Shown piece by piece: positions 1 to 27,405 of a stretch of DNA of 64,000 nucleotides (position 1 is its first letter; the number at the start of each line of letters is the position of its first letter). The translations under genes were made by a program, and so were the position numbers. Below the pieces are notes generated by a model, which ran no database searches, was not told where the DNA came from, and was given only the letters and a program-made list of their open reading frames with translations. This DNA comes from Candidatus Heimdallarchaeota archaeon (GTDB lineage: Archaea > Asgardarchaeota > Heimdallarchaeia > JABLTI01): assembly GCA_019056785.1 (NCBI GenBank), contig DXJV01000084.1, positions 134,492-198,491 of the forward strand. The letters run 5' to 3'.

Positions 1-1017
1 GAAAACTTATTGGAAAACTTTTTCGAACAAATAGCCAACCAACTTAACAACAAAGAAATCAAGAAATCGTTACAATACTTTGAATTCGATTGCTTAGAGA
101 AAAACAGACTGGATGAAAAGCTGCCGTTTTGGCACACGCTAGGGATAATCCGTGGTGTAGAATTAGCCAGCAAAACTTCTCAAGATTTTTTGGTGAGAAA
201 TGTCTTTAAAGCAGCAGAAAAATCAGAGAACCTAAAACAAAAAATCGCACCCGAAATTCTCGTAGACAAATTGACACAAGAAAAAGCCCATTATCGGATA
301 CTTTGGAATGTTGTACGTGTGGCTATCCAACAAGCGATAAATCAAAAAGATCCGAAATTGGTTCTTGCAATAAAGGACCCGCTTTTTGAGATAGGATTAA
401 AATTTATAGATAACGAATTAAAAGAAGCAAGTGAGGAAAAAGACATCCTATATTGGCAAGAACGGATTGAAGAATGTATTTTTTCTTATTTAGCTGCATT
501 ACTTCGTTCACTACCAGAAGAAGAGCAACAACAACTGCTACAAAGAATCCAAGAAGAGAATATCGATGAGCTTAAAAAATTAAAAATCAACAGTATTCTT
601 AAAGAACAGACAATAAAGAATTTTGAATCTTTTTCACTTGAAAATTATGACAATAAGAAAACTGTTGAGTTGTTACATGCCGGTTTGAAAGGTTTCAATC
701 TTCGGGTTATGGCTGAAAAGAAAGCAATGAAAACACTCAAAGAGAACTTGTTGACAATCCTTCAGGAAGAAGAAAAATCAAATAAAATTATTACATTACA
801 AAAGGAACTAAGCAAATTCACACAAGAAGTGCGGGATGTCTCAAAAGAGTTCCAATCACTTTTAATTGAGATCAGACAATTTTTGAAGAAAATAGAATAT
901 GGAGATAGCAAAGTAAAGGATTATTATACATCACTTTATGAAAAGTGCTCTGCAAAGAATTATCAAGGATTGTCTGAAATTTTAGCACTCTTAAAGAAAA
1001 ATTTCATGGAAAAATAA
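1..1017 (+). CDS. Hypothetical alpha-helical protein, probably 5'-truncated by the window
   Basis: The frame is open from base 1 (gaa aac tta ttg). The protein is E/K/L-rich and has no recognised motif. Confidence 0.7.
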   Translation, partial: ENLLENFFEQIANQLNNKEIKKSLQYFEFDCLEKNRLDEKLPFWHTLGIIRGVELASKTSQDFLVRNVFKAAEKSENLKQKIAPEILVDKLTQEKAHYRILWNVVRVAIQQAINQKDPKLVLAIKDPLFEIGLKFIDNELKEASEEKDILYWQERIEECIFSYLAALLRSLPEEEQQQLLQRIQEENIDELKKLKINSILKEQTIKNFESFSLENYDNKKTVELLHAGLKGFNLRVMAEKKAMKTLKENLLTILQEEEKSNKIITLQKELSKFTQEVRDVSKEFQSLLIEIRQFLKKIEYGDSKVKDYYTSLYEKCSAKNYQGLSEILALLKKNFMEK

Positions 1018-1044
1018 AAAAGAAAGAATCCCAACCACGGATTC

Positions 1045-1956
1045 TTATAACTCATCTTCTCCTTCTAATTGCCTTTCACCGCTGCGTTTGAGCCATAGTT
1101 TATAACCAAGACCCGTTTTTGTTGTGGCTAAACCACCTTCTGATGTTTCTTTTATTTCGCAAGGCATCATTCGACCGATTTCATCCATTGCAGTCACAAC
1201 ATCATCAAAAGGGATGACACTTTGAACGCCAGCAAGGGACATGTCAGCAGCAACAGTTGCAGAAACAGCCAGTAGCCCATTTCGTTTTATGCAAGGGACC
1301 TCAACTAAGCCTGCAACTGGGTCACATGCTAAACCCAAAGTATTCTTTAAAACAAGAGCAGCAGCATTTACTGCTTGTTCTGCCGTTCCACCTGCAATTT
1401 CTACTGCTGCGGCAGCAGCCATCGCAGCAGAAACACCTATCTCAGCCTGACAGCCATGTTCTGAACCACTAGTTGATGCTCGTGCATCACAAACTAAGCC
1501 AATTAAAGACGAAGCAAACAAACCTTTAATGATCATCTCTTCAGAAGCATTCAACTTTTCAGCAACGGTATAAACGACAGCCGGAACAACTCCAGCCGAG
1601 CCAGCTGTGGGAGCAGCAACTATGACACCCATTGATGAATTAAATTCTCCTATGCCAATAGCTCTTGCAGCAATCTTTAGAACAGAAGCACTCGAGAGTT
1701 TTTTTGTTTTCTTGGAAAGATAAGTCATCAGTTTATTTGCATTTCCTCCGCTCATGCCACTGGGGGATTCTTTAGTAATCTTAACACCTTGTTTGATGGA
1801 GTTAACCATGTAACTCCAAATTTTCTTCATGCCATTTAAAATTTCTTTTCGACTAACGCCCTGGATTTCAACTTCGTGTTCAATCATTATTTCGCCTAAA
1901 CTCTTATTCTCATCTTTAGCTTTTTTCAGAAATGGTAAAACACTATCTATTGTCAT
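1045..1956 (-). CDS. sdaAA: L-serine dehydratase, Fe-S dependent, alpha subunit
   Basis: Motifs IVAAPTAGSAGVVP, GCQAEIG, GLACDPVAGLVEVPCIKRN (Fe-S cysteines) and ETSEGGLA. Confidence 0.95.
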   Translation of the reverse strand: MTIDSVLPFLKKAKDENKSLGEIMIEHEVEIQGVSRKEILNGMKKIWSYMVNSIKQGVKITKESPSGMSGGNANKLMTYLSKKTKKLSSASVLKIAARAIGIGEFNSSMGVIVAAPTAGSAGVVPAVVYTVAEKLNASEEMIIKGLFASSLIGLVCDARASTSGSEHGCQAEIGVSAAMAAAAAVEIAGGTAEQAVNAAALVLKNTLGLACDPVAGLVEVPCIKRNGLLAVSATVAADMSLAGVQSVIPFDDVVTAMDEIGRMMPCEIKETSEGGLATTKTGLGYKLWLKRSGERQLEGEDEL

Positions 1957-2651
1957 TAGAATATCTCCTCTCCTTCTGTTAATCTAGGTAAGATGCGGAC
2001 CATTTTCATCCCTTCGATGTTGTCCAAACTCGTCTTCAATTCTGCTGGTGGTGAAAGTGAAATTTCTACTGTTGTTAAAGCATCACCTTCTCTTGGGAGG
2101 TCTTTACTTTGTAAGGATAGAATATTAATCTCGAATTGGGAAATTACATGAGTAATCTTTGAAAGTGTGCCCATAAGGTCCTGATGGCGCAGAATGATAG
2201 TTACGTTTTTTCCAGTAATTTCGATCTTATAGCCCAGCACTTCTCGGATAACAATATCGCCTCCGCCAACCGATTCTGCAATTAAATTGACCGGATTCTT
2301 TTCATCAATTATTTCGATCTTAATGCTATTCGGATGATAATTATGACCAAGGTCGATTTTCTTAAGAATAACATCCATTTTTGCCTTTTTAGCATACTTA
2401 TAAGCCTCTTTTATACGTTTATCAAATGTTTTAAAACCAAGCAAGCCACCAATAACAGCTTTGTCCGAACCATGACCACGCCATGTTTCTGCAAACGAGC
2501 CATGGAAATAGACAAACACTTTTTGCGGGTCTGCTCCAAACAATAACCTTGCAGCTCGGCCTATTCGGACCGCCCCTGCAGTATGAGAACTCGATGGACC
2601 CGTCATTATTGGCCCTAGTATCCTAAATGCGCTTTCATCTGTCATTCGCAA
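1956..2651 (-). CDS. sdaAB: L-serine dehydratase beta subunit with C-terminal ACT domain
   Basis: Motifs GPIMTGPSSSHTAGAVRIG, GSFAETWRGHGSD and HPNS, with an ACT-like C-terminus. Overlaps the alpha gene. Confidence 0.95.
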   Translation of the reverse strand: MRMTDESAFRILGPIMTGPSSSHTAGAVRIGRAARLLFGADPQKVFVYFHGSFAETWRGHGSDKAVIGGLLGFKTFDKRIKEAYKYAKKAKMDVILKKIDLGHNYHPNSIKIEIIDEKNPVNLIAESVGGGDIVIREVLGYKIEITGKNVTIILRHQDLMGTLSKITHVISQFEINILSLQSKDLPREGDALTTVEISLSPPAELKTSLDNIEGMKMVRILPRLTEGEEIF

Positions 2652-5637: not shown

Positions 5638-8600
5638 ATGGTGATAAAAAATATGTTGAAGAATAAATTAGTCAAAAAGTCACTAATGTTATCCTTCGCA
5701 GTGTTAATGATCATGAGCAGCTATGTCATGATCGATTCTAAAGCAGACACAGTCCCACCACAGCAAGGCATCCAACTTAAAGATGCGACATATAGTTCTT
5801 TATTCTATGCTGAAAGTGTGGAAATCTTCCCCTTTAGAAGCACTGCAGCAGGAGTCCATGCAGGATTTATAGGTGGCTCAGTAACGTTGCCTTTTGACTT
5901 GACAACAGCAGAATATAATAACTTGTTAGCGTTTTCACTTGTGTTGTCAAACCAACATACCTGGAGAAACTATGCCCCGCGTAGATTCTGGGATGTAGCA
6001 GATGGAGCCTTTTTAATGCTCGTCTTTCGAGGCGACCCGGATCTTGCATTGGACCGTGCAAGAGAAATCAAGGATATGGTTGGTGAAGCCTATGGCTTTA
6101 ATATGTACCTCGTTTTTGGCCACTATGAAAATACCAGGCAAATAACTATGCTTGTCTATCAAGGATGGCCTGACCCCCAAACTTTTGAAGACTTTACCGG
6201 ATTGTTCCCAAGCTATGTAGAAAATGATGGGCTTGGAAAAGGTGTTACAGTCAGCACTTTACTGAATGCACCATTGAAGGCGATGTCAATTTCCCTTTAT
6301 AGAGGCCCCATCTTCCGAATGATGTTGCCCGAGGACTTCAGAAAACTCTTCCCAACAATTGGTCAAACACCCAATTTCATGCCCTTGGTTGAATGTGCCT
6401 GGATTAATCCCGTAGGATTACAAAAGACAGGCTCAATAATGGAAATGAATTTAACGCGACTAATGCCTGGATTAGGAGGAATTGTTGCACCTTCGGCGCA
6501 AGCTAAAGCCTCTTTTGTCGGAATGAAACTCCCCTATGTTGTTGATGTTCTTGAAATCGACCCCCCAACCGATAACATGTATGCTCACTTGAAAGGTGAG
6601 TTTGAATGGACACTAAAATTGGACCTTGGCTTCTTTAACTACGAACGCCTTTTAGACGATATTTACGTAAAATATGACTTGAATATCACCGGATTAAAGT
6701 ATTACCCACAAGTTATCGGTGAAATGACTTTGAACCCAAGTTCGAGCTTGATGGGCGGTGGAGACATAATCTATGACTTTACCTTTACTAATGTTGGCAA
6801 CGAAGCTGCATATAATATCACTATGGGCTATGGCGAATTTAATAAAGCAGATATCGATGGATTCGTCCTCCCTGTGAACAACCCTGAATTAACTTTCGTT
6901 CCGCACCAAATTATGTACTATGATAACAACACCGGGCTCTTCACAAGCACATTCATGTCCGGGCCTGGCATAGGAACATTGGAAGGCTGGTTCTTCAATA
7001 CTACCGCCGGGGATTGGCATTTGAACAATCAGTATTTAAGCGATGATGAAATGGAACACATTATAGACAAAGTCTATTTGAATGAGACCTTTTTAGACAT
7101 CGATCCGATGGATTTCACCTTTACTGACAAGACAAATGAATCATATACCTTAACGGCTTTGATCCCACAACTAGACCCGAATGACACAATAACACTTAGC
7201 TTCGCTGTGAGAAACTTACCCACAGGAACATTAACACTTTACGATGCTGTAGCAGTAAATGCAACATATTACCAGATCTTAGTTAATCAAACAGTCGATT
7301 GGGGCACCTTTATGATAACCTTATTGCAAGGTGCAGGATCAACACTCCATCTCCCCGAGGATCAAGTAACTTGGAGCCATTGGTTCCCAGACCCGGTCAT
7401 CGGTTCAGGTTTCTTATATAAAGACCAATTCGGAGTGGAGTTCTTCGGACTTACCAACGGGTTAGTCATCCAGTTTTATGATGATGAAGCCATACTTGTT
7501 GGACAAGTGTCTTTGGACAAAGATGTCTACCGCTTCGGTGAAGATGTTAACTTTACCTTAAAACTGACAAACATTGGTGATGCAAATGCCACTAACATAA
7601 ACTATTCCTTCTGCCATGCCTTCCTCACTGAGGACTTTAATATACCTGTTATTAAAAAAGTGCCAGATAGTGATGGCGTTATTGATTTAATCAAACCAGG
7701 AGAAAGTAAAACAGTTTCCTACAGTTATCCTGCGGAAACAGATGTCGGCTTACATCCAGTTTTTGCTATTTTCAACTATACAAGCGATGAGACAACCGAT
7801 CCCGATTTTCCAGCGATTTTCAGCAGCGTTAATCACCCAGCAGTTTTCAGCAACATAGATTTTGCAATGGTGCTTCCACCTCCCCATAAGGAAGGAACAA
7901 CCGAACCCGTCTATCCCACACCGGAAGTAAATGTTACAACGGAGATACTTGGCTATACACCCAATGTGACTACTGTTGGAGACATGATTACTTTACGAAC
8001 AACTATTACCAACATTGGTGATGAAGATACGAATATTATCTATCGCCAGTACTTACCAAGACGGCTCCATTATGTCGACGATTCATTGAAGATCACAATC
8101 GATGGTACCCCTGTCACTCAATTTGAAGTGATCTATCAAGCCTATCAACCCAATGTAGAAGAATCGGGATATAATCCATTCATGCCCTCAGTAACCATTT
8201 ATGGGGGAACCATAGATGGAACACTCTATGGCATACCATTAGGCGTTGGAGAAACACTCGTCATCCAAGCAAACTTCACAATAGGCGCTGGGAAAGGAAT
8301 TGAACAAGTCGATTGGAATACTCTCTCTGGTGAGGACCTCGTTGGCTTATACATTCCTCCGGCTGAAGTTCGCTACTTTAGCAGATATCAAATCCAAGAG
8401 ACTCGTGATCTCAATGATGATACCGAAGTGCCTGTGGAGGAGGAATCTGTTGAAACCGCATCATTCCTAACAACAATTCATGGTACCACTATAAACAGCG
8501 AACCAGGAATCGACAACGAATGGGCTTCCACAAACTCTTGGGGCTCATATTCAGATAGCCTCTCACTCTTTATAGAAGAACTTTCAGGCCTGGGTATAAA

Positions 8601-19358: not shown

Positions 19359-22300
19359 TTATGCTTGGTCCTTTAATTTTAATCTAGGAGCCATTCCCAG
19401 CGAAATGAGTTCTTGTAACAGTAATTTAAATGCATAACTCATAACTACTGGAGCAACATCTGCCTCGCCTTTACAAACAGGGCAGAAGTACTTGTCACGA
19501 TTGCGGTCATAGGTGGCAAGAACACCACATTTCCCACAAACGTTTATTGTCGTTTTATCAGATTCATCTAATAATCGTTCTTTTAGAAGCAAGGCAGCAC
19601 CATGGCCGACAAGACAATCACGTTCCATTTCACCAAAACGCAGACCACCTTCTCGAGCGCGTCCTTCTGTTGGTTGACGTGTGAGAATTTGTACAGGCCC
19701 ACGAGATCTGGCGTGGGTTTTGTCTTTAACAAGATGATGGAGCTTTTGGTAATAAGCTATACCCATAAAAATGTCGACGTCATATTTTCGGCCGGTAATA
19801 CCATTATACATTGCTTGTTTACCATAATAGTTCAAACCAAGTTCTTTCAAGCCCTTAACAAGCTCGTCAGAAGAAATGCCCTCGAAAGGTGTTGCATCAA
19901 CTGTGATTCCTTTCTTCGCGCCAAAAATAGCTGCCATTGTCTCGAGGATTTGACCAATAGTCATTCGAGAGGGGATAGCATGACAATTAACGATGATATC
20001 AGGAGTAATGCCTTCCGCTGTAAATGGCAAATCTTCTGGCGGGGCGATTAAACCAATAACCCCTTTCTGTCCATGTCGAGAGGCAAATTTATCACCAAGT
20101 TCAGGAATACGCATGTCCCGCATTTTGACTTTTACTAAACGATTGCCGTCGCTGGTTTCAGTCAGAATAACCGTATCAACAAATCCCTCTTCACTATGGC
20201 GCATGCTAATGCTTGTTTCATGACGAATGGGTGCGCGAACTTCGAATTCACTATACTCTTCAAGAAAACGAGGTGGAGAGGTTCGGCCAATAATCACTTC
20301 ATCGCCTTTAATTTGGCTCTCTGGCTCGACAATGCCATCAGCACTAAGGTGCACATAGGCTTCCGGTGGGCGGAATCCACGAACATCTTTGTCAATGCGT
20401 TCAAACTTGTCTTCTTGCCCCGCAGGATAGCGACGCTCTTCAGCCTCATATCGCCTAAAGAATGCTGAACGAGCAAGGCCACGTTCAATGGAATGTTTGT
20501 TAAAGATGATGGCGTCTTCCATGTTATATCCTTCATAACTCAGAAGAGCAATAACCATATTTTGTCCTGCCGGTCGCTTATCAAAATTAATAATATCCAT
20601 TCCATGTGTTTTTACAAGTGGTTTTTGGGGATAAAAGAGAATATGAGAGCGTGTATCAACACGTAACCGATAATTTGCAGCATACATTCCTAATGCTTGT
20701 TTAGCCATTGCAGACTCGTAAGTATTACGGGGGGATTGGTTGTGCTCTGCAAAAGGAATTAAGGAGGCGCAAATGCCAAGAATTGAACTTGGAGCAATCT
20801 CTAAATGGGTGTAGGAACTATCTTTCTCAAGGTCCTCGGGTTCCATGGCGATATAGGAACTCTCTTCTTCTTCTGCATCGAGATATTCAACAAAACCACG
20901 CTTTATCAAATCATTCCAAGTCCAAGCGCCATTCTTCAACTTCTCGACATGTTTTTGCTCGAGTTTTAACTTGCCTTTTTCGACAATTAAAAGGGGGCGC
21001 CGTACTCGGCCGTGATCACAATTGATCTGAATTTCTTCAACGTCTTCATAAAAGTTAACATTGACTTCAGGACTAATAAGCCCTTTTCGTCTTGCCTTTT
21101 TAATACTTGCAACGAAATTTTTGGGATCGGGATGAGAGCCTAACAGGCGGCCGTTCAAGAAAACCTTGCATGCATCTGTAGACTTCATGTTTTTTAATTC
21201 ATTCAAATTCAAAGAATAAAGAAAGTCTTCAATCTCCTTTTCATCAGTCCCCACACTAATGTAAGCTTCTAAAGCAAGGTTTTTCACCAAGCCACAGTTC
21301 GGGCCTTCGGGCGTCTCGCTTGGGCAAATCTTACCAAAATGAGTAGGATGAAGGTCACGAGCCTCAAAATGGGGTTGTGTCCTACTTAAGGGGCTAACAA
21401 CACGCCGCAAGTGGCTCAAAGTGGAAATGTAATTGGTTCTATCGAGCAATTGGCTTACACCGGCTTTTCCACCAACCCAATTGCCAGTAGCTAAAGCGTG
21501 GCGCAACCGCTCGGTAATTACATCAGCACGAACTGCTGTTTTAATATTAGGGGTTCGCCCACGAATGGCTGTTCGTTCCAATTGATATTTAATGTCGCGG
21601 CAAAGGCTCATAAATGCAACACGAAAGAGGGAAATAAGTGACTCACCAGAGAGTTTCAAACGTTTATTCGCATAATGATCTTTATCGTCTTCTTGTCTCT
21701 TGCCCAATTCAAGTTCAAGCAATCTTTGAGCCATCTGGCCCAAAAAGTAGGCTTTCCCAATACGGTCTTCTTCTGTCGTTCCAATGTGTCGCAAGAGGTA
21801 GCGGTCCAAAATTTCACGCGCACGCTTTATACGGTAATCTATTGTTTGCCCCACAGCGACACGTTTTCCAATAAAATCAAGAGCTTTTTCCTCATCCGTA
21901 ATTTCGGAAGCTTCATCAAGAGAGGGAATGAGCTCTTTTCGGACCTCCGGATCATCAGAAACGGCTTCCACAATAGCTTTATCGGAAGAAAGGCCAAGAG
22001 CTTTTAACAAAACAGCAAAAGGAATTTTACGAGGAACAGACGGGAAACTGACACTCAAGCTACCATCACGGGAGCGCTCCATCGTCACAGGAGCACGCAC
22101 ACCTTGGGCCGTACTAAATACCTTTGCCATACTGGTTGTGCTTCCGGTCTTGTGTTCAATTAAAATACGGTTTGGCGCCAAATCTTCTTGGGTGACAAGC
22201 ACACGTTCACTACCATTAATAATAAAATAACCACCAGGGTCGTTGGGGTCTTCACCTGCTTTAATCAGTTCTTCATCGGTCATGCGACTTAAGGGGCAGA

Positions 22301-22700
22301 CTTTCGATTTGAGCATGATGGGCATTCGACCAATAAACACAGGCGAAGTTTCTCGAGGAATCTCATTCCCTGCCTCATCAACTCGAACAGGGGTTAACTC
22401 GAGATATAAGGGAGCAGTATAGGTCAAATTCCTTATTCGGGCTTCGCTTGGATAAATATTATTAAGGGAACCATCCGCTTCACGGACATTTGGGGACTCC
22501 ATATAAATCTTGTTTATCTTGACATAGTAATTTGGGATCTCCGGCTTAATGCTGCCAATCTCTTGGACAACCTTTTGCATGCCATTTTGGATAAATTCAT
22601 TATAACTGTCAAGATGTTGACGAACAAGCCCCAGTTCCTTTACCATAGATTCTATAAGAATCCATCTATCTTCTATAGACAATTTATAAGTTTCAGACAT
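19359..22700 (-). CDS. rpoB: RNA polymerase subunit B (unsplit)
   Basis: Motifs GDKFASRHGQKG, ETPEGPNCGL and GGLRFGEMERD in a single 1113-aa ORF. Confidence 0.99.
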   Translation of the reverse strand: MSETYKLSIEDRWILIESMVKELGLVRQHLDSYNEFIQNGMQKVVQEIGSIKPEIPNYYVKINKIYMESPNVREADGSLNNIYPSEARIRNLTYTAPLYLELTPVRVDEAGNEIPRETSPVFIGRMPIMLKSKVCPLSRMTDEELIKAGEDPNDPGGYFIINGSERVLVTQEDLAPNRILIEHKTGSTTSMAKVFSTAQGVRAPVTMERSRDGSLSVSFPSVPRKIPFAVLLKALGLSSDKAIVEAVSDDPEVRKELIPSLDEASEITDEEKALDFIGKRVAVGQTIDYRIKRAREILDRYLLRHIGTTEEDRIGKAYFLGQMAQRLLELELGKRQEDDKDHYANKRLKLSGESLISLFRVAFMSLCRDIKYQLERTAIRGRTPNIKTAVRADVITERLRHALATGNWVGGKAGVSQLLDRTNYISTLSHLRRVVSPLSRTQPHFEARDLHPTHFGKICPSETPEGPNCGLVKNLALEAYISVGTDEKEIEDFLYSLNLNELKNMKSTDACKVFLNGRLLGSHPDPKNFVASIKKARRKGLISPEVNVNFYEDVEEIQINCDHGRVRRPLLIVEKGKLKLEQKHVEKLKNGAWTWNDLIKRGFVEYLDAEEEESSYIAMEPEDLEKDSSYTHLEIAPSSILGICASLIPFAEHNQSPRNTYESAMAKQALGMYAANYRLRVDTRSHILFYPQKPLVKTHGMDIINFDKRPAGQNMVIALLSYEGYNMEDAIIFNKHSIERGLARSAFFRRYEAEERRYPAGQEDKFERIDKDVRGFRPPEAYVHLSADGIVEPESQIKGDEVIIGRTSPPRFLEEYSEFEVRAPIRHETSISMRHSEEGFVDTVILTETSDGNRLVKVKMRDMRIPELGDKFASRHGQKGVIGLIAPPEDLPFTAEGITPDIIVNCHAIPSRMTIGQILETMAAIFGAKKGITVDATPFEGISSDELVKGLKELGLNYYGKQAMYNGITGRKYDVDIFMGIAYYQKLHHLVKDKTHARSRGPVQILTRQPTEGRAREGGLRFGEMERDCLVGHGAALLLKERLLDESDKTTINVCGKCGVLATYDRNRDKYFCPVCKGEADVAPVVMSYAFKLLLQELISLGMAPRLKLKDQA

Positions 22701-23193
22701 TCAATGATAGCCTCACTAACACAGACTTCTAGGACAATTTTTCCTTGCCAAAAAGCTAATGATCATATTTTTATTCCAGCTGGAAGAGCACACACTCTTT
22801 TCGTATATCTTCATTTTTTAAATCTTACTACTAGGAAAGGTTTTGCTCAGCGAATATTTAACCGAAACTATTATCCAGATATTTATCATCGTACAGCTTG
22901 TGGGATGATTCGTGACGGACAAAGGAGACGGAAAGTGAGCTCCTTACAAGTAAACAGCGAATAAAGGATTGCGTTTTTAAGGCACCACTATTGTTTTGAG
23001 CAGCTAGTCTTTTTCTTTCCCGGAGGGCTTTTTGACAGAGGATTGCTTTATCTTCTTTTTAATCATTTAAGCGAAAACCTATTGAATAATTTTTCGATGC
23101 CTTTGAAGTAAATAACGGGGATTTTTAATGGTGAAATATGGAACAGATTAATGGAAAAAACGCCCTCGGTAAAACAATAAAGGAAGCTAAGGA

Positions 23194-24150
23194 ATGCAAA
23201 GAAGTCAAGAAGTAGAGCAGCAAGTAGAAAAAGTATTAATCACCGGCTTGGACAATGCCGGAAAGAGCTCTATAGTGGACATTCTGAATTACTTGCCAAC
23301 AGAAGCAGTTTTGCGAAGAACGCCAAGTCAAGAATTAGAGATTTTTAACAAATCCTTTATGAAAAAAGAATTCGTTTTTTTTATCCCACCTGGACAGGAG
23401 ACTTTACGGCAAACAGAATTACACGGAACAATGAAAGGGGAATACTTTAGTAACGTTTCAACCTTTGTATTCGTCGTTGATGCAGCAGATAAATTGCGAG
23501 TACAAGAAGTTAGGCAAGAACTAAAATGTTCCTTGGAGGATCTTTTGGCGTTTTCTCCCGACTGTAAACAATTCTTAATCTTTGCCCACAAACAAGATTT
23601 AGAGGGAGCATTAACAAGTTTCGAGCTCGCCGAAAAAATAGTAGAACCACTCCAACAGCAATTTCCTTGCTTGAAAAACAAATTCAAGCTTTTTGAAACA
23701 ACAATCATTAATCCTGAGACAATTTATGAACCATTCTTAAAAGCAATCGCAAAACATGTTGGGCTTAATCGAATCGATTTCGACCAATTAGCAGAATGGA
23801 TACGAGAGCAAGTAAAAGCAAAAATTGTCTTGATAACAGACGCTGAGGGATTACTGGTGGGAGAAGCACAAAAAGGGCAAGAAGACACCATCATTTATTC
23901 AGCATACATTGCGAAGATCTTTTCAGCGACAGATGAATATCAAAGTGACATTTTCAGAGAAGGAATAAAAATAGCCATTCTCGAAGAGGAAAAGAAAGAA
24001 AACTACAGTATAGTCTCGAGAGTCAATTGTTCAAAAAAGGATTACCTAGCCCTTTTTATCGGCAATCCAAAAGTAAACCTAGGATTAGCAAGATTAATCA
24101 CCAAAAAAGGATTGGAAAGATTAGAGGTGGCATATCAACGGTACCGATAA
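23194..24150 (+). CDS. Rag/Gtr-like small GTPase fused to C-terminal roadblock domain
   Basis: G1 GLDNAGKS, G3-like IPPGQ, G4 HKQD and G5 ETTI. C-terminal roadblock pattern IVLITDAEGLLVG...YSAYIAKIFSA. Confidence 0.8.
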   Translation: MQRSQEVEQQVEKVLITGLDNAGKSSIVDILNYLPTEAVLRRTPSQELEIFNKSFMKKEFVFFIPPGQETLRQTELHGTMKGEYFSNVSTFVFVVDAADKLRVQEVRQELKCSLEDLLAFSPDCKQFLIFAHKQDLEGALTSFELAEKIVEPLQQQFPCLKNKFKLFETTIINPETIYEPFLKAIAKHVGLNRIDFDQLAEWIREQVKAKIVLITDAEGLLVGEAQKGQEDTIIYSAYIAKIFSATDEYQSDIFREGIKIAILEEEKKENYSIVSRVNCSKKDYLALFIGNPKVNLGLARLITKKGLERLEVAYQRYR

Positions 24151-24169
24151 TAGAAAGGAGATAGAAAAA

Positions 24170-25165
24170 ATGGATGGCAAAAATGAAGCGTTTTTATTAG
24201 TGGAATTTGACTCAATGAAAGGGCCATTGATTAGAATGGTAAGGCCAAAAAAGGCGACTTTAATTAAGAAAATAAATGAAAAGAAATTGCTAATCTGGAT
24301 CATCCGTGCGACAGAATTCTCAGTTCAAAGATTAGGGGAATTAACCGTTTATGCTAAAGCCCTTGCATTGGACGACCCGAACTTTAGCCGGAAAAAAAGG
24401 CAGTTTGGGGTAGCATTTTTAACGCAACGCACGTTAGAATTAACAGTGGCACAAAAGTTACTCGAGTTATTGATCCAAAAATGCAAAAAAGAAGCAAATA
24501 ACCAAGGATATTTTTTAATGTTACAAAAATTTTTGGAAACACTCGAGTTTGCTCAAGTTCAACTGGATGCAAATGCACTTGTAACCGAACCCGAAGAGAA
24601 AGAATTTGATTCAAATAAACTGCAAATCTTCAATAAAATAACCTTTGAATTTAAAGAGCTTGCTAAGGAAATAATTGTAAATGCTACAAACACCACAGAC
24701 CAACAAAATAAGCAAAATAATGCACCGCTCCAATTTGAAACGAGAAAAATAAAAGCTCAAGTTGAGCTACAAGGAGAGCGCCCTCAAGATTTGAGCTTAG
24801 CATTGAACCTTTTTTTGCGTATATTGGAGAGATTACCGAAAGAAGAGTTGCAGACGAGAATTATTGCGGCAGTTGAATATCTCGACAGATTATTGTTCGA
24901 GAAAGTAGATATCGAGTATTTCCTTTCATTTCTACATTACTTTATTTCAATGGAAGAATTCACTATCAGCGAATTTAAAAAAGAAGAATTGATCGCCCAA
25001 CTGAAGAACCTTCAAGAAACACATGGGGAATGGATAAAATGCTTAGTAACAGCAGAATTCACAGGGAAAAGCCTGGAACATTTTTTTAAAATAACGGGCT
25101 TTCGAAGAGAAGGGCTAGAATTACTAATTGATTTGCTTTTCATCAAAATAATTGCTGTTCATTAA
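24170..25165 (+). CDS. Longin/uDENN-domain protein, NPRL2/folliculin-like
   Basis: N-terminal LVEFDSMKGPLI strand motif, LDDPNFSRKKRQFGVAFL hairpin and a wHTH-like C-terminus. Confidence 0.65.
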   Translation: MDGKNEAFLLVEFDSMKGPLIRMVRPKKATLIKKINEKKLLIWIIRATEFSVQRLGELTVYAKALALDDPNFSRKKRQFGVAFLTQRTLELTVAQKLLELLIQKCKKEANNQGYFLMLQKFLETLEFAQVQLDANALVTEPEEKEFDSNKLQIFNKITFEFKELAKEIIVNATNTTDQQNKQNNAPLQFETRKIKAQVELQGERPQDLSLALNLFLRILERLPKEELQTRIIAAVEYLDRLLFEKVDIEYFLSFLHYFISMEEFTISEFKKEELIAQLKNLQETHGEWIKCLVTAEFTGKSLEHFFKITGFRREGLELLIDLLFIKIIAVH

Positions 25166-25210
25166 TAATACATTTAAAGAACAGAGGAGAATAATGGAAT
25201 GTGAATTGCA

Positions 25211-26014
25211 TTGACCAGCAAAAGGGATCTGACATCACTCCCCTCACTAATGGTTCCAGGACAACCGGCAATCCTATTCAATGATAAGAAAAAAGGAAGA
25301 ACATTAGTAGTCGCAGACCTGCACATTGGCTATGTCTACAATCAAAATAAAAGAGGGATAATTATCCCGATGGCGAGAACAGCAGAAGAAGAACTGCTGA
25401 AGCTGGTAAAAAAACTCGAGCCAAGAAGAGTCATTATTTTAGGCGATTTTAAAGATGAAATTTATGGCGCGGGCAACCCGTTAACCGGCAGAATTTTTTC
25501 TTTTATCAAAAAAATGACAGCAAAAGCACGATTAACAATTATCAAAGGCAACCATGATGGCAATCTCGAAGATTTTTTGAGTAAGCCAATTGAAATTATC
25601 CCTGCAACCGGAATGACATTAGAATTACTCGAGGGAATAAAAATAGGGCTCTGGCATGGACATGCAACACCAGCACTTGATGTTATGAATGCTCAAATAA
25701 CTATTTCAGCACACGCACACCCCGCATATAGTTTTCGAGATCAATTGGGAACAAAAATAACAGAAAAAGTGTGGGTGAAAAGCAAATGGCGCGAAGAAAC
25801 AAAAAAAAGAACCCACATTATTATGCCGGCGTTCAACCCTTACATTGATGGTTTCTCGGTAGATGGGGAGTTCTTTAAAAAGAATGTAACAATGCGTGAA
25901 GGGGTGGAGTTCTTGAAAGCAGAAGTTTTCACACTCGAGGGAGTCCTCTTAGGAACCATTGAAGAACTGCAAGAAGAACGAAGAAAAATAGAAGAGAAAA
26001 AAGAAACCAGATGA
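25211..26014 (+). CDS. Calcineurin-like metallophosphoesterase (archaeal COG1407-like)
   Basis: Motifs ADLHIG, ILGD, KGNHD, HGH, HAHP and MPAFN. Confidence 0.9.
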   Translation: MTSKRDLTSLPSLMVPGQPAILFNDKKKGRTLVVADLHIGYVYNQNKRGIIIPMARTAEEELLKLVKKLEPRRVIILGDFKDEIYGAGNPLTGRIFSFIKKMTAKARLTIIKGNHDGNLEDFLSKPIEIIPATGMTLELLEGIKIGLWHGHATPALDVMNAQITISAHAHPAYSFRDQLGTKITEKVWVKSKWREETKKRTHIIMPAFNPYIDGFSVDGEFFKKNVTMREGVEFLKAEVFTLEGVLLGTIEELQEERRKIEEKKETR

Positions 26015-26019
26015 AAAGC

Positions 26020-27405
26020 TCACTTCTTTCCATTTGCCCGAGCAACCACCACACCAGAAATCGCACTCTGCATAACGCCACGGGTAATGCCCGCACCATC
26101 ACCAATGAAGTATAAATTCTTGACGGTTTTCGACTCGAGATTTTTTGTCATATCAATACGAATACTATACAACTTGATCTCAGGAGCATAGATAAGTGTA
26201 TTTGGCCCATCAATCCCAGGCATGATAGCATTAAGGTGAGTAAGAAAGTCTCGCAAGTCACTCATCACTCTACTTGGAATAGCAAAACTAATGTCACCTG
26301 CAATAGCACTCTCGAGTGTAGGTCGAATAACGGAGCGTTTTAATCGCTCAAGGGTTGAACGACGACCGTTTTTCAAATCTTCGAAACGTTGGATAAGAAC
26401 AGAATTTCCACCAGAGAGCATGTTTGCTAAGTTAGCAACATGTTTAGCATAGCGAATGGGTTGCTTGAAGGGTTCTGTGAAATTACACGTGACAAGAATT
26501 GCAAAATTAGTGTTAGGACTATTTACATCAGTCCGGCTTTCACCATTCACACAAGTCGTTTCATCATAACGCTCAGTTGTTACGAATCCGCCAGGACAAA
26601 CACAAAAAGTACGGACATGGTCCTCATAGGTCCTTGTGACATATTCAATTTTGAACTCGTAAAGATTGTCAGTAAATTCTTTGCAATACTCATTTAAGGT
26701 TTCTACGCGAACACCGATATCAACGGCATTATTGGAGTAAGAAATTCCAAGTCGATTGCATTCGGCTTTCAACCAGTTTGTCCCGCCACGACCAACAGCC
26801 ATGACGACCTTTTTCGCCTTGTATTCTCGACCATCGGCAGTTCGGACGCCGATCGCAACACCATCTTTCACTAGAATTTTATCGACTTTCTTCCGTAAAA
26901 CAATGTTGATCTTATCTTTTAGATATTGATAGATGTTTTCCATAATTGCGGAAGCATTATCTGTTCCGAGATGGCGAATGGGGTAAGTGACGAGTTTCAT
27001 GTTTTCTTTCCGGCATAGGCTTTCCATACGCTCGACAAACTCAGGGTCAGGGCTAAAATAGCGATCACCACCATTACTAAAACTGAGAATGGTTTGATCA
27101 ACATATTCAATTAATTCAGAAAGCTCTTTCATACTGATAAAGTCGCTCATCCAACCGCCAACAGTGCCGGTGACATCTTTGGTGATTTTACCGTCGGACC
27201 AAGCACCGGCACCACCAAAACCACTGGTTATGTCACAAGTCTTGCAGGCAACGCATTCAATATTTTGCTCACGACGAGGACAATACCTTTTGGTAACTTC
27301 TTTACCCCGGTCAATGAGAGTAATATTAGTAACGCCTTGTTTAACTAATTCTAAAGCGCAAAAGATCCCTGCAGGACCTGCACCAACAATTACAAAGTCA
27401 TCCAT
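26020..27405 (-). CDS. FAD-dependent oxidoreductase (COG2509-like) with N-terminal Cys cluster
   Basis: Motifs GAGPAG, CxxCxxC, GFGGAGAWSDGK, VDIGVRVE, RTFCVCPGG and GDGAGITRG. Confidence 0.9.
   Translation of the reverse strand: MDDFVIVGAGPAGIFCALELVKQGVTNITLIDRGKEVTKRYCPRREQNIECVACKTCDITSGFGGAGAWSDGKITKDVTGTVGGWMSDFISMKELSELIEYVDQTILSFSNGGDRYFSPDPEFVERMESLCRKENMKLVTYPIRHLGTDNASAIMENIYQYLKDKINIVLRKKVDKILVKDGVAIGVRTADGREYKAKKVVMAVGRGGTNWLKAECNRLGISYSNNAVDIGVRVETLNEYCKEFTDNLYEFKIEYVTRTYEDHVRTFCVCPGGFVTTERYDETTCVNGESRTDVNSPNTNFAILVTCNFTEPFKQPIRYAKHVANLANMLSGGNSVLIQRFEDLKNGRRSTLERLKRSVIRPTLESAIAGDISFAIPSRVMSDLRDFLTHLNAIMPGIDGPNTLIYAPEIKLYSIRIDMTKNLESKTVKNLYFIGDGAGITRGVMQSAISGVVVARANGKK

What the first reader, a model, noticed from the sequence alone, without database searches (positions are those of the whole stretch)
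23194..25165. Two-gene Rag-like GTPase + NPRL2/folliculin-like GAP module
Seen: ORF1 has GTPase + C-terminal roadblock architecture with G4 HKQD and G5 ETTI. ORF2 starts 19 nt downstream with LVEFDSMKGPLI and contains LDDPNFS-R74-KKRQFGVAFL. Established: Rag/Gtr GTPases have HKxD/TSI motifs and a roadblock CTD. NPRL2 (GATOR1) and folliculin use a longin-hairpin Arg (NPRL2 R78, FLCN R164) as the GAP finger on Rags. Inference: this is a minimal cognate Rag-GAP pair, a possible prokaryotic precursor of the mTORC1 amino-acid sensing switch, and it is transcribed divergently from the RNA polymerase operon. Both folds are already reported in Asgards. The operonic pairing with a retained Arg finger is the notable part.
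Basis: partly seen in the sequence, partly recalled or inferred. Interest (0 to 1): 0.82.

Follow-up and report, generated by a model that had tools for sequence, protein, structure and literature searches.

The report
Archaeal Rag-like GTPase with longin partner
A Heimdall-group Asgard archaeon encodes, back to back, a Rag-type GTPase and a protein whose first domain carries the two signature motifs (including an invariant arginine) of the eukaryotic Rag switch-off factors NPRL2 and folliculin. The same gene pair recurs in two other Asgard lineages, so it is a good but biochemically untested candidate for a minimal archaeal GTPase and GAP pair.

Summary
ORF1 (23194-24150) has an Arf/Rag-type G domain (GLDNAGKS, PPGQ, HKQD, ETTI) and a roadblock-like tail, and its model best matches full-length RagA, Gtr1 and LokiRagO. 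ORF2 (24170-25165) starts 19 nt later behind an AAGGAG. It has no Pfam hit, but its model is a longin fold whose top solved matches are NPRL2 chains of GATOR1.

A longin profile finds human NPRL2 as its only real PDB sequence hit (weak, E 0.13). That alignment puts G18-P19 on NPRL2 G20-P21 and the invariant R74 on the catalytic R78.

The ORF2 family is confined to one GTDB family, where the whole block from rpoB to the peptidase gene is syntenic, so adjacency there proves little. However, the same GTPase-then-longin pair, overlapping or at most 4 nt apart, occurs with different flanks in Njordarchaeota (5 of 5 genomes) and in a third family. Some Njord longins reach Pfam Folliculin.

Binding and GAP activity are not shown, and the complex prediction gave no verdict. 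Both folds and the GP plus Arg motifs are already published for Asgards. I did not find the fixed GTPase partner in the papers I could search. This scan has already found the same kind of pair on other genomes.

The parts
23116..23130 (+). Conserved CGGGGATTTTTAATG block, a candidate archaeal BRE/TATA promoter of the pair, about 65 nt before the ORF1 ATG
   Evidence: This is one of only two conserved blocks in the 493-nt intergenic region across 9 related genomes. The promoter role is inferred.
23194..24150 (+). ORF1, a Rag-like GTPase of 318 aa: Arf/Rag-type G domain (about residues 10-190) plus a roadblock-like C-terminal domain (about 195-318)
   Evidence: Pfam Arf 1.2e-18, Gtr1_RagA 2.7e-15 (profile positions 1-218 of 232), Robl_LC7 0.034. 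AF2 model at pLDDT 65 with alpha-beta-beta-alpha-beta-beta-beta-alpha topology in the tail. Foldseek best hits are full-length RagA, Gtr1 and LokiRagO, E about 1e-17 to 1e-15, TM 0.53-0.70.
23245..23268 (+). G1 P-loop GLDNAGKS (Arf-type)
23386..23397 (+). G3/switch II PPGQ: the catalytic Gln68 is kept, and the Walker-B Asp is replaced by Pro
   Evidence: P66, G67 and Q68 are invariant in the family. Aligned to WDIGGQ of Arl3, with a 6-residue switch II insert.
23587..23598 (+). G4 HKQD (Rag-type His)
   Evidence: H132, K133 and D135 are invariant
24151..24169 (+). 19-nt spacer with the Shine-Dalgarno-like AAGGAG (24155-24160), as expected for an internal cistron of an operon
   Evidence: Co-transcription is inferred.
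24170..25165 (+). ORF2, 331 aa: N-terminal FLCN/NPRL2-type longin domain (about residues 4-135), a beta-rich middle part (142-200) and a helical C-terminal part (208-330)
   Evidence: AF2 model at pLDDT 84. Foldseek top 5 hits are NPRL2 chains, E 5e-5 to 7e-4. VIA Z 10.6-11.4 to NPRL2; longin alone to 6ces_N Z 10.7, rmsd 3.1 A, 128 residues aligned. NPRL2, Npr2p and FLCN clusters appear in the ESM-Atlas fold search.
24221..24226 (+). GP motif (G18-P19) directly before longin strand beta2
   Evidence: Invariant across three Asgard families. Beta2 is residues 20-24 in the model. Aligned to NPRL2 G20-P21.
24389..24391 (+). Codon of Arg74, the candidate arginine finger, within the invariant DPNFxRKKRQFG (24374-24409), between beta4 and beta5
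   Evidence: Invariant in 22 of 22 members. Aligned to NPRL2 R78 by the profile search. Model elements: E58-65, H70-74, E77-85.
25211..26014 (+). Metallophosphoesterase gene 45 nt downstream: a co-oriented neighbour in this family only, not part of the conserved core
   Evidence: Pfam Metallophos 1.2e-6; TIGR00024 6.3e-25, below its cutoff. Present in the f1 loci. In the two Njord loci where downstream sequence was read, what follows the longin gene differs; I did not search those loci for this gene.

Best explanation
ORF1 and ORF2 form a co-transcribed, cognate small-GTPase and regulator pair. ORF1 is a Rag-architecture molecular switch: an Arf/Rag-type G domain with the catalytic Gln68, plus a roadblock domain that probably mediates dimerisation. 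ORF2 docks its FLCN/NPRL2-type longin domain on the GTP-bound G domain and inserts Arg74, positioned next to the G18-P19 motif, into the nucleotide pocket. This accelerates GTP hydrolysis, so ORF2 acts as the GAP that switches ORF1 off. Shown here: the folds, the motifs, their conservation, the alignment to NPRL2 R78 and the conserved gene pairing. Inferred: binding, GAP catalysis, co-transcription and dimer states. What the switch controls downstream is unknown. A role in TOR-type nutrient sensing is not supported.
For: ORF1 fold and family. ORF2 longin fold with NPRL2 chains as top solved matches. NPRL2, Npr2p and FLCN clusters appear in the Atlas fold search. The GP motif and Arg are invariant within the family and across three Asgard families. 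The longin profile A5 has human NPRL2 as its only non-designed PDB hit and aligns GP to G20-P21 and R74 to R78. The Njord members of the same longin group reach Pfam Folliculin: the L043 protein scores 6e-5 and 23.4 bits against a cutoff of 23.3, and P0096 scores 2.4e-4. According to PMC12290439, the GP motif plus Arg finger distinguishes GAP-type longins (FLCN, NPRL2, SMCR8, C9orf72) from GEF or adaptor longins. Gene pairing: the spacer is 19 nt with an SD-like sequence. The same GTPase-then-longin order, overlapping by 1-26 nt or separated by at most 4 nt, is found in Njordarchaeota (5 of 5 genomes) and in a third GTDB family (2 genomes), with unrelated flanking genes. ORF1 and the pair GTPases are reciprocal best hits in 4 of 5 genomes. 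They form one group in the ML tree, but with weak support: 65/27, and 70% of bootstrap trees.
Against: There is no biochemical or structural evidence of contact. The NPRL2 sequence match is below significance (E 0.13), and ORF2 itself has no Pfam hit. Generic non-GAP longins score nearly as well on the longin domain alone: Ykt6 Z 9.2, Loki roadblock-longin Z 10.3. Within the window's own family the whole six-gene block is syntenic, with rpoB 87-91% identical, so adjacency there could be inertia. Monophyly of the pair GTPases is weakly supported. Eukaryotic NPRL2 and FLCN act only as heterodimers with a second longin protein, yet no ORF2 paralogue is detectable in this 83%-complete genome. ORF1 lacks the Walker-B Asp, so its nucleotide chemistry may be unusual. 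Most Asgard genomes with weaker matches to the longin profile show no adjacent GTPase.
Confidence: 0.55

Rival explanations
1. ORF2 is a cognate partner of ORF1 but not a GAP. It would act as a longin-platform GEF, scaffold or effector (as in TRAPP, Mon1-Ccz1 and DENN proteins), with R74 and the basic RKKR patch serving structure, membrane binding or partner binding.
For: Most longin-domain regulators of small GTPases are GEFs or adaptors (stated in PMC12290439). Mon1-Ccz1, CPLANE, DENND and adaptor longins appear among the structural matches at Z 7-9. The motif RKKRQ is strongly basic, and R77 is also conserved. The C-terminal two thirds of ORF2 have no assigned function.
Against: The GP motif is reported to be absent from non-GAP longins (PMC12290439), yet it is invariant here. 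R74 aligns with the catalytic R78 of NPRL2. The top structural matches are NPRL2 and Npr2 over the full length.
Confidence: 0.2
2. ORF2 is a GAP-type longin but its target is a different GTPase (one of the ArfR/Arf-like or other Rag-like paralogues), or ORF1 is regulated by its own roadblock domain in the MglB manner. The adjacency would then reflect co-regulation rather than direct contact.
For: The genome holds at least 8 further small-GTPase paralogues. SMCR8-C9orf72 acts on Arf, and PMC12290439 leaves open whether ArfR or Rag is the partner. The complex prediction was not specific enough to decide. Within family f1 the synteny extends to unrelated genes.
Against: The pair is retained, with overlapping reading frames, in three families with different flanks. 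In G000, ORF1 is the only GTPase of its clade apart from one long-branch sequence.
Confidence: 0.15
3. There is no functional link to GTPase regulation. ORF2 would be a lineage-specific protein whose longin-like fold and Arg are coincidental, placed next to ORF1 by chance or inertia.
For: ORF2 has no significant sequence-family hit. Its family is confined to one GTDB family.
Against: The model is confident and its top hits are NPRL2. The motifs are invariant across families. The pairing recurs in distant lineages with translationally coupled spacing.
Confidence: 0.07

Closest known systems
NPRL2 (yeast Npr2), the catalytic subunit of GATOR1/SEACIT, GAP for RagA/B (Gtr1); PDB 6ces, 7t3a/b, 9o5a, 8adl
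   Same: Both have an N-terminal longin domain with EF-x3-GP before beta2 and [YF]-S-R-x4-F before beta5. R74 aligns with R78. NPRL2 gives the best structural matches over the full length. The proteins are similar in size (331 vs 380 aa). The neighbouring gene encodes a Rag-architecture GTPase.
   Different: The sequence match is not significant (E 0.13), and there is no Pfam NPR2 hit. No NPRL3-like second longin protein was detected in the genome. I did not search for a DEPDC5 homologue. Equivalence of the C-terminal domain is unresolved, because the global superpositions have rmsd 14-15 A. GAP activity is untested.
Folliculin (FLCN-FNIP2, yeast Lst7-Lst4), GAP for RagC/D, and SMCR8-C9orf72, GAP for Arf
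   Same: These are the same class of GP-motif plus Arg-finger longins (PMC12290439). The Njord members of this pair family reach Pfam Folliculin PF11704. FLCN and FLCN/SMCR8-type clusters appear among the fold matches.
   Different: ORF2 has no DENN domain after the longin domain and no FNIP or C9orf72-like partner gene. ORF2 itself does not hit PF11704.
GP-motif/Arg-finger longins of Heimdallarchaeia (Traffic 2025, PMC12290439) and NPRL2-like Asgard families (Liu et al., 10.1101/2020.10.19.343400)
   Same: They share the same fold class, motifs and phylum. ORF2 is best seen as a further family of this published class.
   Different: Those papers do not name a GTPase partner, and PMC12290439 explicitly asks whether it is ArfR or Rag. 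Liu et al. describe NPRL2-like proteins mainly in Thor and Loki, and as fusions to two-component domains. Here the longin gene is fixed directly behind a Rag-like GTPase gene in three families.
Asgard Rag-like GTPase-roadblock proteins (LokiRagO, PDB 8yl2; LokiRagM, 9m28/8zla; MK-D1 Rag-like proteins, Tran et al. 2024, PMC10933270) and eukaryotic RagA/Gtr1
   Same: ORF1 has a G domain plus a C-terminal roadblock domain. It matches 8yl2 over the full length by sequence (E 2.8e-9) and by structure (TM 0.64-0.70). It carries a switch II insert, as Tran et al. noted for GTPase-RB architectures.
   Different: The G-domain sequence scores higher against Arf/Arl than against eukaryotic Rags. G3 is PPGQ, without the Asp. 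The oligomeric state is unknown. Tran et al. found that MK-D1 GTPases are generally not in operons with longin or roadblock genes, whereas this one is.

Membership tests
FLCN/NPRL2/SMCR8-type GAP longin domains | Longin fold (beta-beta-alpha-beta-beta-beta-alpha-alpha) | tested here: met
   AF2 model at pLDDT 84 with elements E6-14, E20-24, H38-46, E51-55, E58-65, E77-85, H91-109, H114-131. VIA to 6ces_N: Z 10.7, rmsd 3.1 A, 128 residues.
FLCN/NPRL2/SMCR8-type GAP longin domains | GP motif at the end of the beta1-beta2 loop (criterion from PMC12290439) | tested here: met
   G18-P19 lie directly before beta2. They are invariant in three Asgard families and align to NPRL2 G20-P21.
FLCN/NPRL2/SMCR8-type GAP longin domains | Conserved arginine at the position of NPRL2 R78 / FLCN R164 | tested here: met
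   R74 is invariant in 22 of 22 members and aligns to R78 in the profile-to-6ces_N alignment. Its spatial reach to the nucleotide could not be tested.
FLCN/NPRL2/SMCR8-type GAP longin domains | Significant match to Pfam NPR2 (PF06218) or Folliculin (PF11704) | tested here: inconclusive
   ORF2 and its 21 close relatives give no hit at E up to 10. The Njord pair longins, linked to ORF2 by profile search (E 8e-7), hit Folliculin at 6e-5, right at the gathering score.
FLCN/NPRL2/SMCR8-type GAP longin domains | Arg-dependent stimulation of GTP hydrolysis on a Rag or Arf GTPase | not testable with these tools
   This needs a biochemical assay.
GATOR1 complex (NPRL2-NPRL3-DEPDC5) | A second, non-catalytic longin subunit (NPRL3-like) forming a heterodimer | tested here: not met
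   The own genome (83% complete) holds only ORF2 when searched with P0002 at E up to 10 and with the longin profile A4. This was tested at sequence level only.
GATOR1 complex (NPRL2-NPRL3-DEPDC5) | A DEPDC5/Iml1 subunit | not tested
   I did not search for it.
GATOR1 complex (NPRL2-NPRL3-DEPDC5) | NPRL2-type architecture after the longin domain (TINI and C-terminal domain) | tested here: inconclusive
   VIA aligns residues 4..331 to NPRL2 6..326 with 201-209 residues, but at rmsd 14-15 A. The Atlas NPRL2 cluster aligns 190 residues over 4-247 at TM 0.42. The C-terminal part alone gave nothing usable.
Rag/Gtr GTPases | G domain fused to a C-terminal roadblock domain | tested here: met
   Gtr1_RagA scores 56.9 bits against a cutoff of 22, and Robl_LC7 is weak. 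Full-length Foldseek matches to RagA, Gtr1 and LokiRagO. The tail is modelled at low confidence, pLDDT 45-70.
Rag/Gtr GTPases | Canonical G motifs, including DxxGQ and HKxD | tested here: inconclusive
   GKS, Q68 and HKQD are present, but G3 is PPGQ without the Asp. The P-loop GLDNAGKS is Arf-type, and Arf/Arl outscore Rags by sequence.
Rag/Gtr GTPases | Placement inside the RagGtr clade with eukaryotic Rags (as in 10.1101/2024.02.28.582541) | not tested
   My tree holds only Asgard paralogues.
Rag/Gtr GTPases | Dimerisation through the roadblock domains | not testable with these tools

The most novel reading that the evidence does not exclude
The GTPase-then-longin operon is a surviving minimal form of the ancestral module from which eukaryotic Rag-GATOR1 and Rag-FLCN (and perhaps Arf-SMCR8) switches descend. 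In this form, one Rag-like GTPase is switched off by one homomeric Arg-finger longin protein, inherited as a unit since before the split of Heimdall-group and Njord-group Asgards. That would mean the Rag/longin-GAP partnership predates eukaryotes and TOR.
Probability: 0.3. Interest if true: 0.8.

Novelty: new variant of a known kind. Interest (0 to 1): 0.6.

Why it matters
Two recent papers state the gap directly. Tran et al. 2024 (PMC10933270) say that Asgard GTPases cannot be matched to their GAPs or GEFs from genome layout. The 2025 Traffic paper (PMC12290439) asks which GTPase family partners the GP-motif/Arg-finger longins of Heimdallarchaeia. A conserved, translationally coupled pair names one concrete GTPase for one concrete longin. 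Both proteins are small and soluble-looking, so the question can be tested directly with a pull-down and a GTPase assay using an R74A control. If GAP activity is confirmed, the Rag/longin-GAP relationship would be shown to predate eukaryotes. If it is not, the GP/Arg signature would be shown not to predict GAP function.

Tried and rejected
1. Complex prediction of ORF1 + ORF2 + GTP + Mg gave no verdict. The scores were 0.40, 0.46 and 0.46, but a control with chain 1 replaced scored 0.27, which is inside the required margin. I do not use this for or against binding.
2. No RNA run was listed for this stretch, so co-transcription could not be examined.
3. Pfam and NCBIfam scans of ORF2 and of all 22 family members found no meaningful family.
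4. The PDB sequence search with the full-length family profile A1 returned only designed proteins and TRPV2 noise. NPRL2 appeared only with the broader longin-only profile A5.
5. The Atlas search for the C-terminal 138-331 of ORF2 gave no usable hit by features, and the structure rows at TM 0.29-0.38 are unrelated. I therefore leave that part's fold and role open.
6. The third database search, with the mixed alignment A3, was capped at 8000 candidates and added only two Njord-type proteins.
7. The sigma-70 promoter and terminator scan does not apply to an archaeon, and its counts were at shuffle level. The Rfam scan of 22000-26500 found nothing.
8. I looked for rpoH in the rpoB-ORF1 intergenic region and found no ORF of at least 30 aa that looks real.
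9. I considered treating the metallophosphoesterase as a third module member and rejected this. It is conserved next to the pair only in family f1. In the two Njord loci I read, what lies downstream of the longin gene differs, although I did not search those loci for the gene.
10. I considered the position next to the RNA polymerase genes as meaningful and rejected this for the same reason: it is seen only in family f1.
11. Model coordinates are not exposed to scripts, so the distance from R74 to the GP motif could not be measured.
Full report
THE OBSERVATION. ORF1 is 23194-24150 (+), 318 aa, and ORF2 is 24170-25165 (+), 331 aa. The spacer is 19 nt and carries AAGGAG 9 nt before the ORF2 ATG. 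All quoted motifs are present: GLDNAGKS, HKQD and ETTI in ORF1, and LVEFDSMKGPLI and DPNFS-R74-KKRQFG in ORF2. rpoB lies divergently, 493 nt upstream.

ORF1. Pfam gives Arf (1.2e-18), Gtr1_RagA (2.7e-15, covering 1-218 of the 232-position profile) and a weak Robl_LC7 hit. The AF2 model is confident in the G domain but weak in the tail (mean pLDDT 65). The tail nevertheless has roadblock topology. Foldseek puts full-length RagA, Gtr1 and the solved Lokiarchaeal LokiRagO first, with E about 1e-17 to 1e-15 and TM 0.53-0.70. By sequence alone the G domain is nearer Arf/Arl, and it has a 6-residue switch II insert. This matches what Tran et al. 2024 (PMC10933270) describe for Asgard GTPase-roadblock proteins: 'Rag-like, but also close to Arf'. 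I therefore call ORF1 Rag-like by architecture and leave its clade (RagGtr or ArfL) open.

ORF2. No Pfam, NCBIfam or PDB sequence hit was found for ORF2 or its family. The family is small: 38 database hits and 14 representatives at 50% identity, all from Heimdall-type MAGs. The alignment-based AF2 model (pLDDT 84) shows a longin domain (4-135), a beta-rich middle part and a helical C-terminal part. The five best Foldseek matches among solved structures are NPRL2 chains of GATOR1, with E 5e-5 to 7e-4. VIA-align gives Z 10.6-11.4 to NPRL2 and Npr2. On the longin domain alone it gives Z 10.7, rmsd 3.1 A and 128 aligned residues to 6ces_N. Ordinary longins are not far behind (Z 8-10), so fold alone does not settle the subtype.

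The motifs help to settle the subtype. K17, G18 and P19 are nearly invariant, and D69 to G80 including R74 is invariant, across 22 members. A broader longin profile (A5) has human NPRL2 as its only non-designed PDB hit. The hit is weak (E 0.13), but the alignment puts EF-x3-GP on NPRL2 SEFHPTLGP (G20-P21) and R74 on R78, the published catalytic arginine. PMC12290439 reports the GP motif as specific to GAP-type longins (FLCN, NPRL2, SMCR8, C9orf72) and notes the same GP plus Arg arrangement in Heimdallarchaeial longins. The ESM-Atlas fold search also returns NPRL2, Npr2p and FLCN/SMCR8 clusters. Whether ORF2's C-terminal two thirds correspond to NPRL2's remains unresolved.

IS THE PAIRING MEANINGFUL? 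In ten species-level genomes and one metagenome contig, the block rpoB(-) | GTPase(+) longin(+) phosphoesterase(+) | FAD protein(-) A24 peptidase(-) is fully collinear. These genomes have rpoB 87-91% identical, and a 400-genome sample of the phylum finds the full-length family only in one GTDB family, in 11 of 11 genomes. Adjacency there could therefore be inertia.

The informative result came from weak longin-only hits in that search. In Njordarchaeota (named; 5 of 5 genomes) and in a third family (2 genomes), a 318-336 aa GTPase-roadblock gene is followed directly by a 228-291 aa longin gene. The GTPase carries GKT, xPGQ, HKQD and (N)TSI motifs. The longin keeps EF[DH]xxEGP and the Arg. The two genes overlap by 1-26 nt or are separated by at most 4 nt, and they sit among quite different neighbours. 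Some of these longins reach Pfam Folliculin: 6e-5 at the gathering score, and 2.4e-4.

ORF1 and these GTPases are reciprocal best hits in 4 of 5 genomes. In an ML tree with 15 paralogues they form one group, clearly apart from the other G000 GTPases (100/99). The group itself has weak support: 65/27, and 70% of bootstrap trees. Longin-profile hits in other families, mostly in f20, showed no GTPase within 1.5 kb. The pairing is therefore lineage-restricted, in line with Tran et al.'s remark about MK-D1.

MECHANISM. The best-supported reading is a cognate switch-and-GAP pair, with ORF2's longin domain supplying Arg74 to the ORF1 nucleotide pocket, where Gln68 is retained. The folds, motifs, alignment and pairing are shown. 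Contact, catalysis, co-transcription and oligomeric states are inferred. The rival readings are a GEF or scaffold role, a different GTPase target, or no link at all. They are weighed in the report sections. The complex prediction gave no verdict and no RNA data were available.

WHAT IS NOT SUPPORTED. The evidence does not support membership of GATOR1 proper, because no second longin paralogue was found and I did not search for DEPDC5. It does not support a role in TOR signalling, since Liu et al. (10.1101/2020.10.19.343400) note that Asgards lack a homologue of the TOR kinase catalytic domain. It gives no reason to attach significance to the RNA polymerase neighbourhood.

NOVELTY. Rag-like GTPases, NPRL2-like proteins and GP/Arg longins are all published for Asgards (10.1101/2020.10.19.343400; PMC10933270; PMC12290439). 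I found no paper in the searchable library that reports this fixed GTPase and longin operon. Subscription papers, such as the Nature Microbiology version of Vargova et al., could not be read. This scan has itself already reported the same kind of pair on other genomes (e1-2567186, e1-5382812, e1-5497722). I rate it a new variant of a known kind. It is moderately interesting, because it turns an explicitly stated open question into a simple experiment.

Noticed in passing
window 22701-23193: The 493-nt rpoB-ORF1 intergenic region has no credible ORF and no rpoH. It contains two blocks conserved across 9 related genomes. One is about 130 nt next to the rpoB start and includes AGCTGGAAGAGC and CTTTTAAAT (ATTTAAAAG on the rpoB strand, TATA-like). 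The other is CGGGGATTTTTAATG at 23116-23130, upstream of ORF1. The first block suggests a long conserved rpoB leader.
   Followed up: partly
window 23386-23397; L026, L043-L047, L067-L074: The pair GTPases and the other Njord Rag-like paralogues replace the Walker-B Asp of DxxGQ with Pro, Thr, Phe, Ile or Val, giving an xPGQ motif, while keeping GK[ST], Gln and HKxD. This looks like a clade-wide departure from the canonical Mg-coordinating motif.
   Followed up: partly
L067-L074 (genomes G293, G295): Each Njordarchaeota genome holds 4-5 further 284-321 aa Rag-like (GTPase plus tail) paralogues, forming three well-supported subclades distinct from the longin-paired one. Their neighbours were not examined.
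   Followed up: no
L048 (genome G007, family f11) 595-1959 (-) and 1-473 (-): A 454-aa protein has a longin-like N-terminus (KFDEVKGF, so no GP) and a weak Pfam Folliculin hit (0.048). It is followed 121 nt downstream by a canonical DVGGQ small GTPase. This may be a second, reversed-order version of the theme.
   Followed up: no
window 25211-26014: The metallophosphoesterase (TIGR00024 SbcD_rel_arch 6.3e-25 and PdeM-like 4.5e-19, both below cutoff) lies 45 nt after ORF2 and is co-oriented. It is conserved there throughout family f1, but what follows the longin gene differs in the Njord loci read.
   Followed up: partly
P0017/P0066, P0027/P0063, L008: NCBI labels some records that carry this block as 'candidate division Zixibacteria bacterium' or 'Candidatus Bathyarchaeia archaeon'. 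The one such record I compared (L008, labelled Bathyarchaeia) has rpoB 91% identical to the window's and the same gene order. The taxonomic labels of these MAGs are probably wrong.
   Followed up: no
window 23000-26100: Near-identical DNA (at least half of the sampled words) is held by 8 runs of marine sediment and hydrothermal vent metagenomes from several studies, so the organism or close strains recur in such habitats.
   Followed up: no
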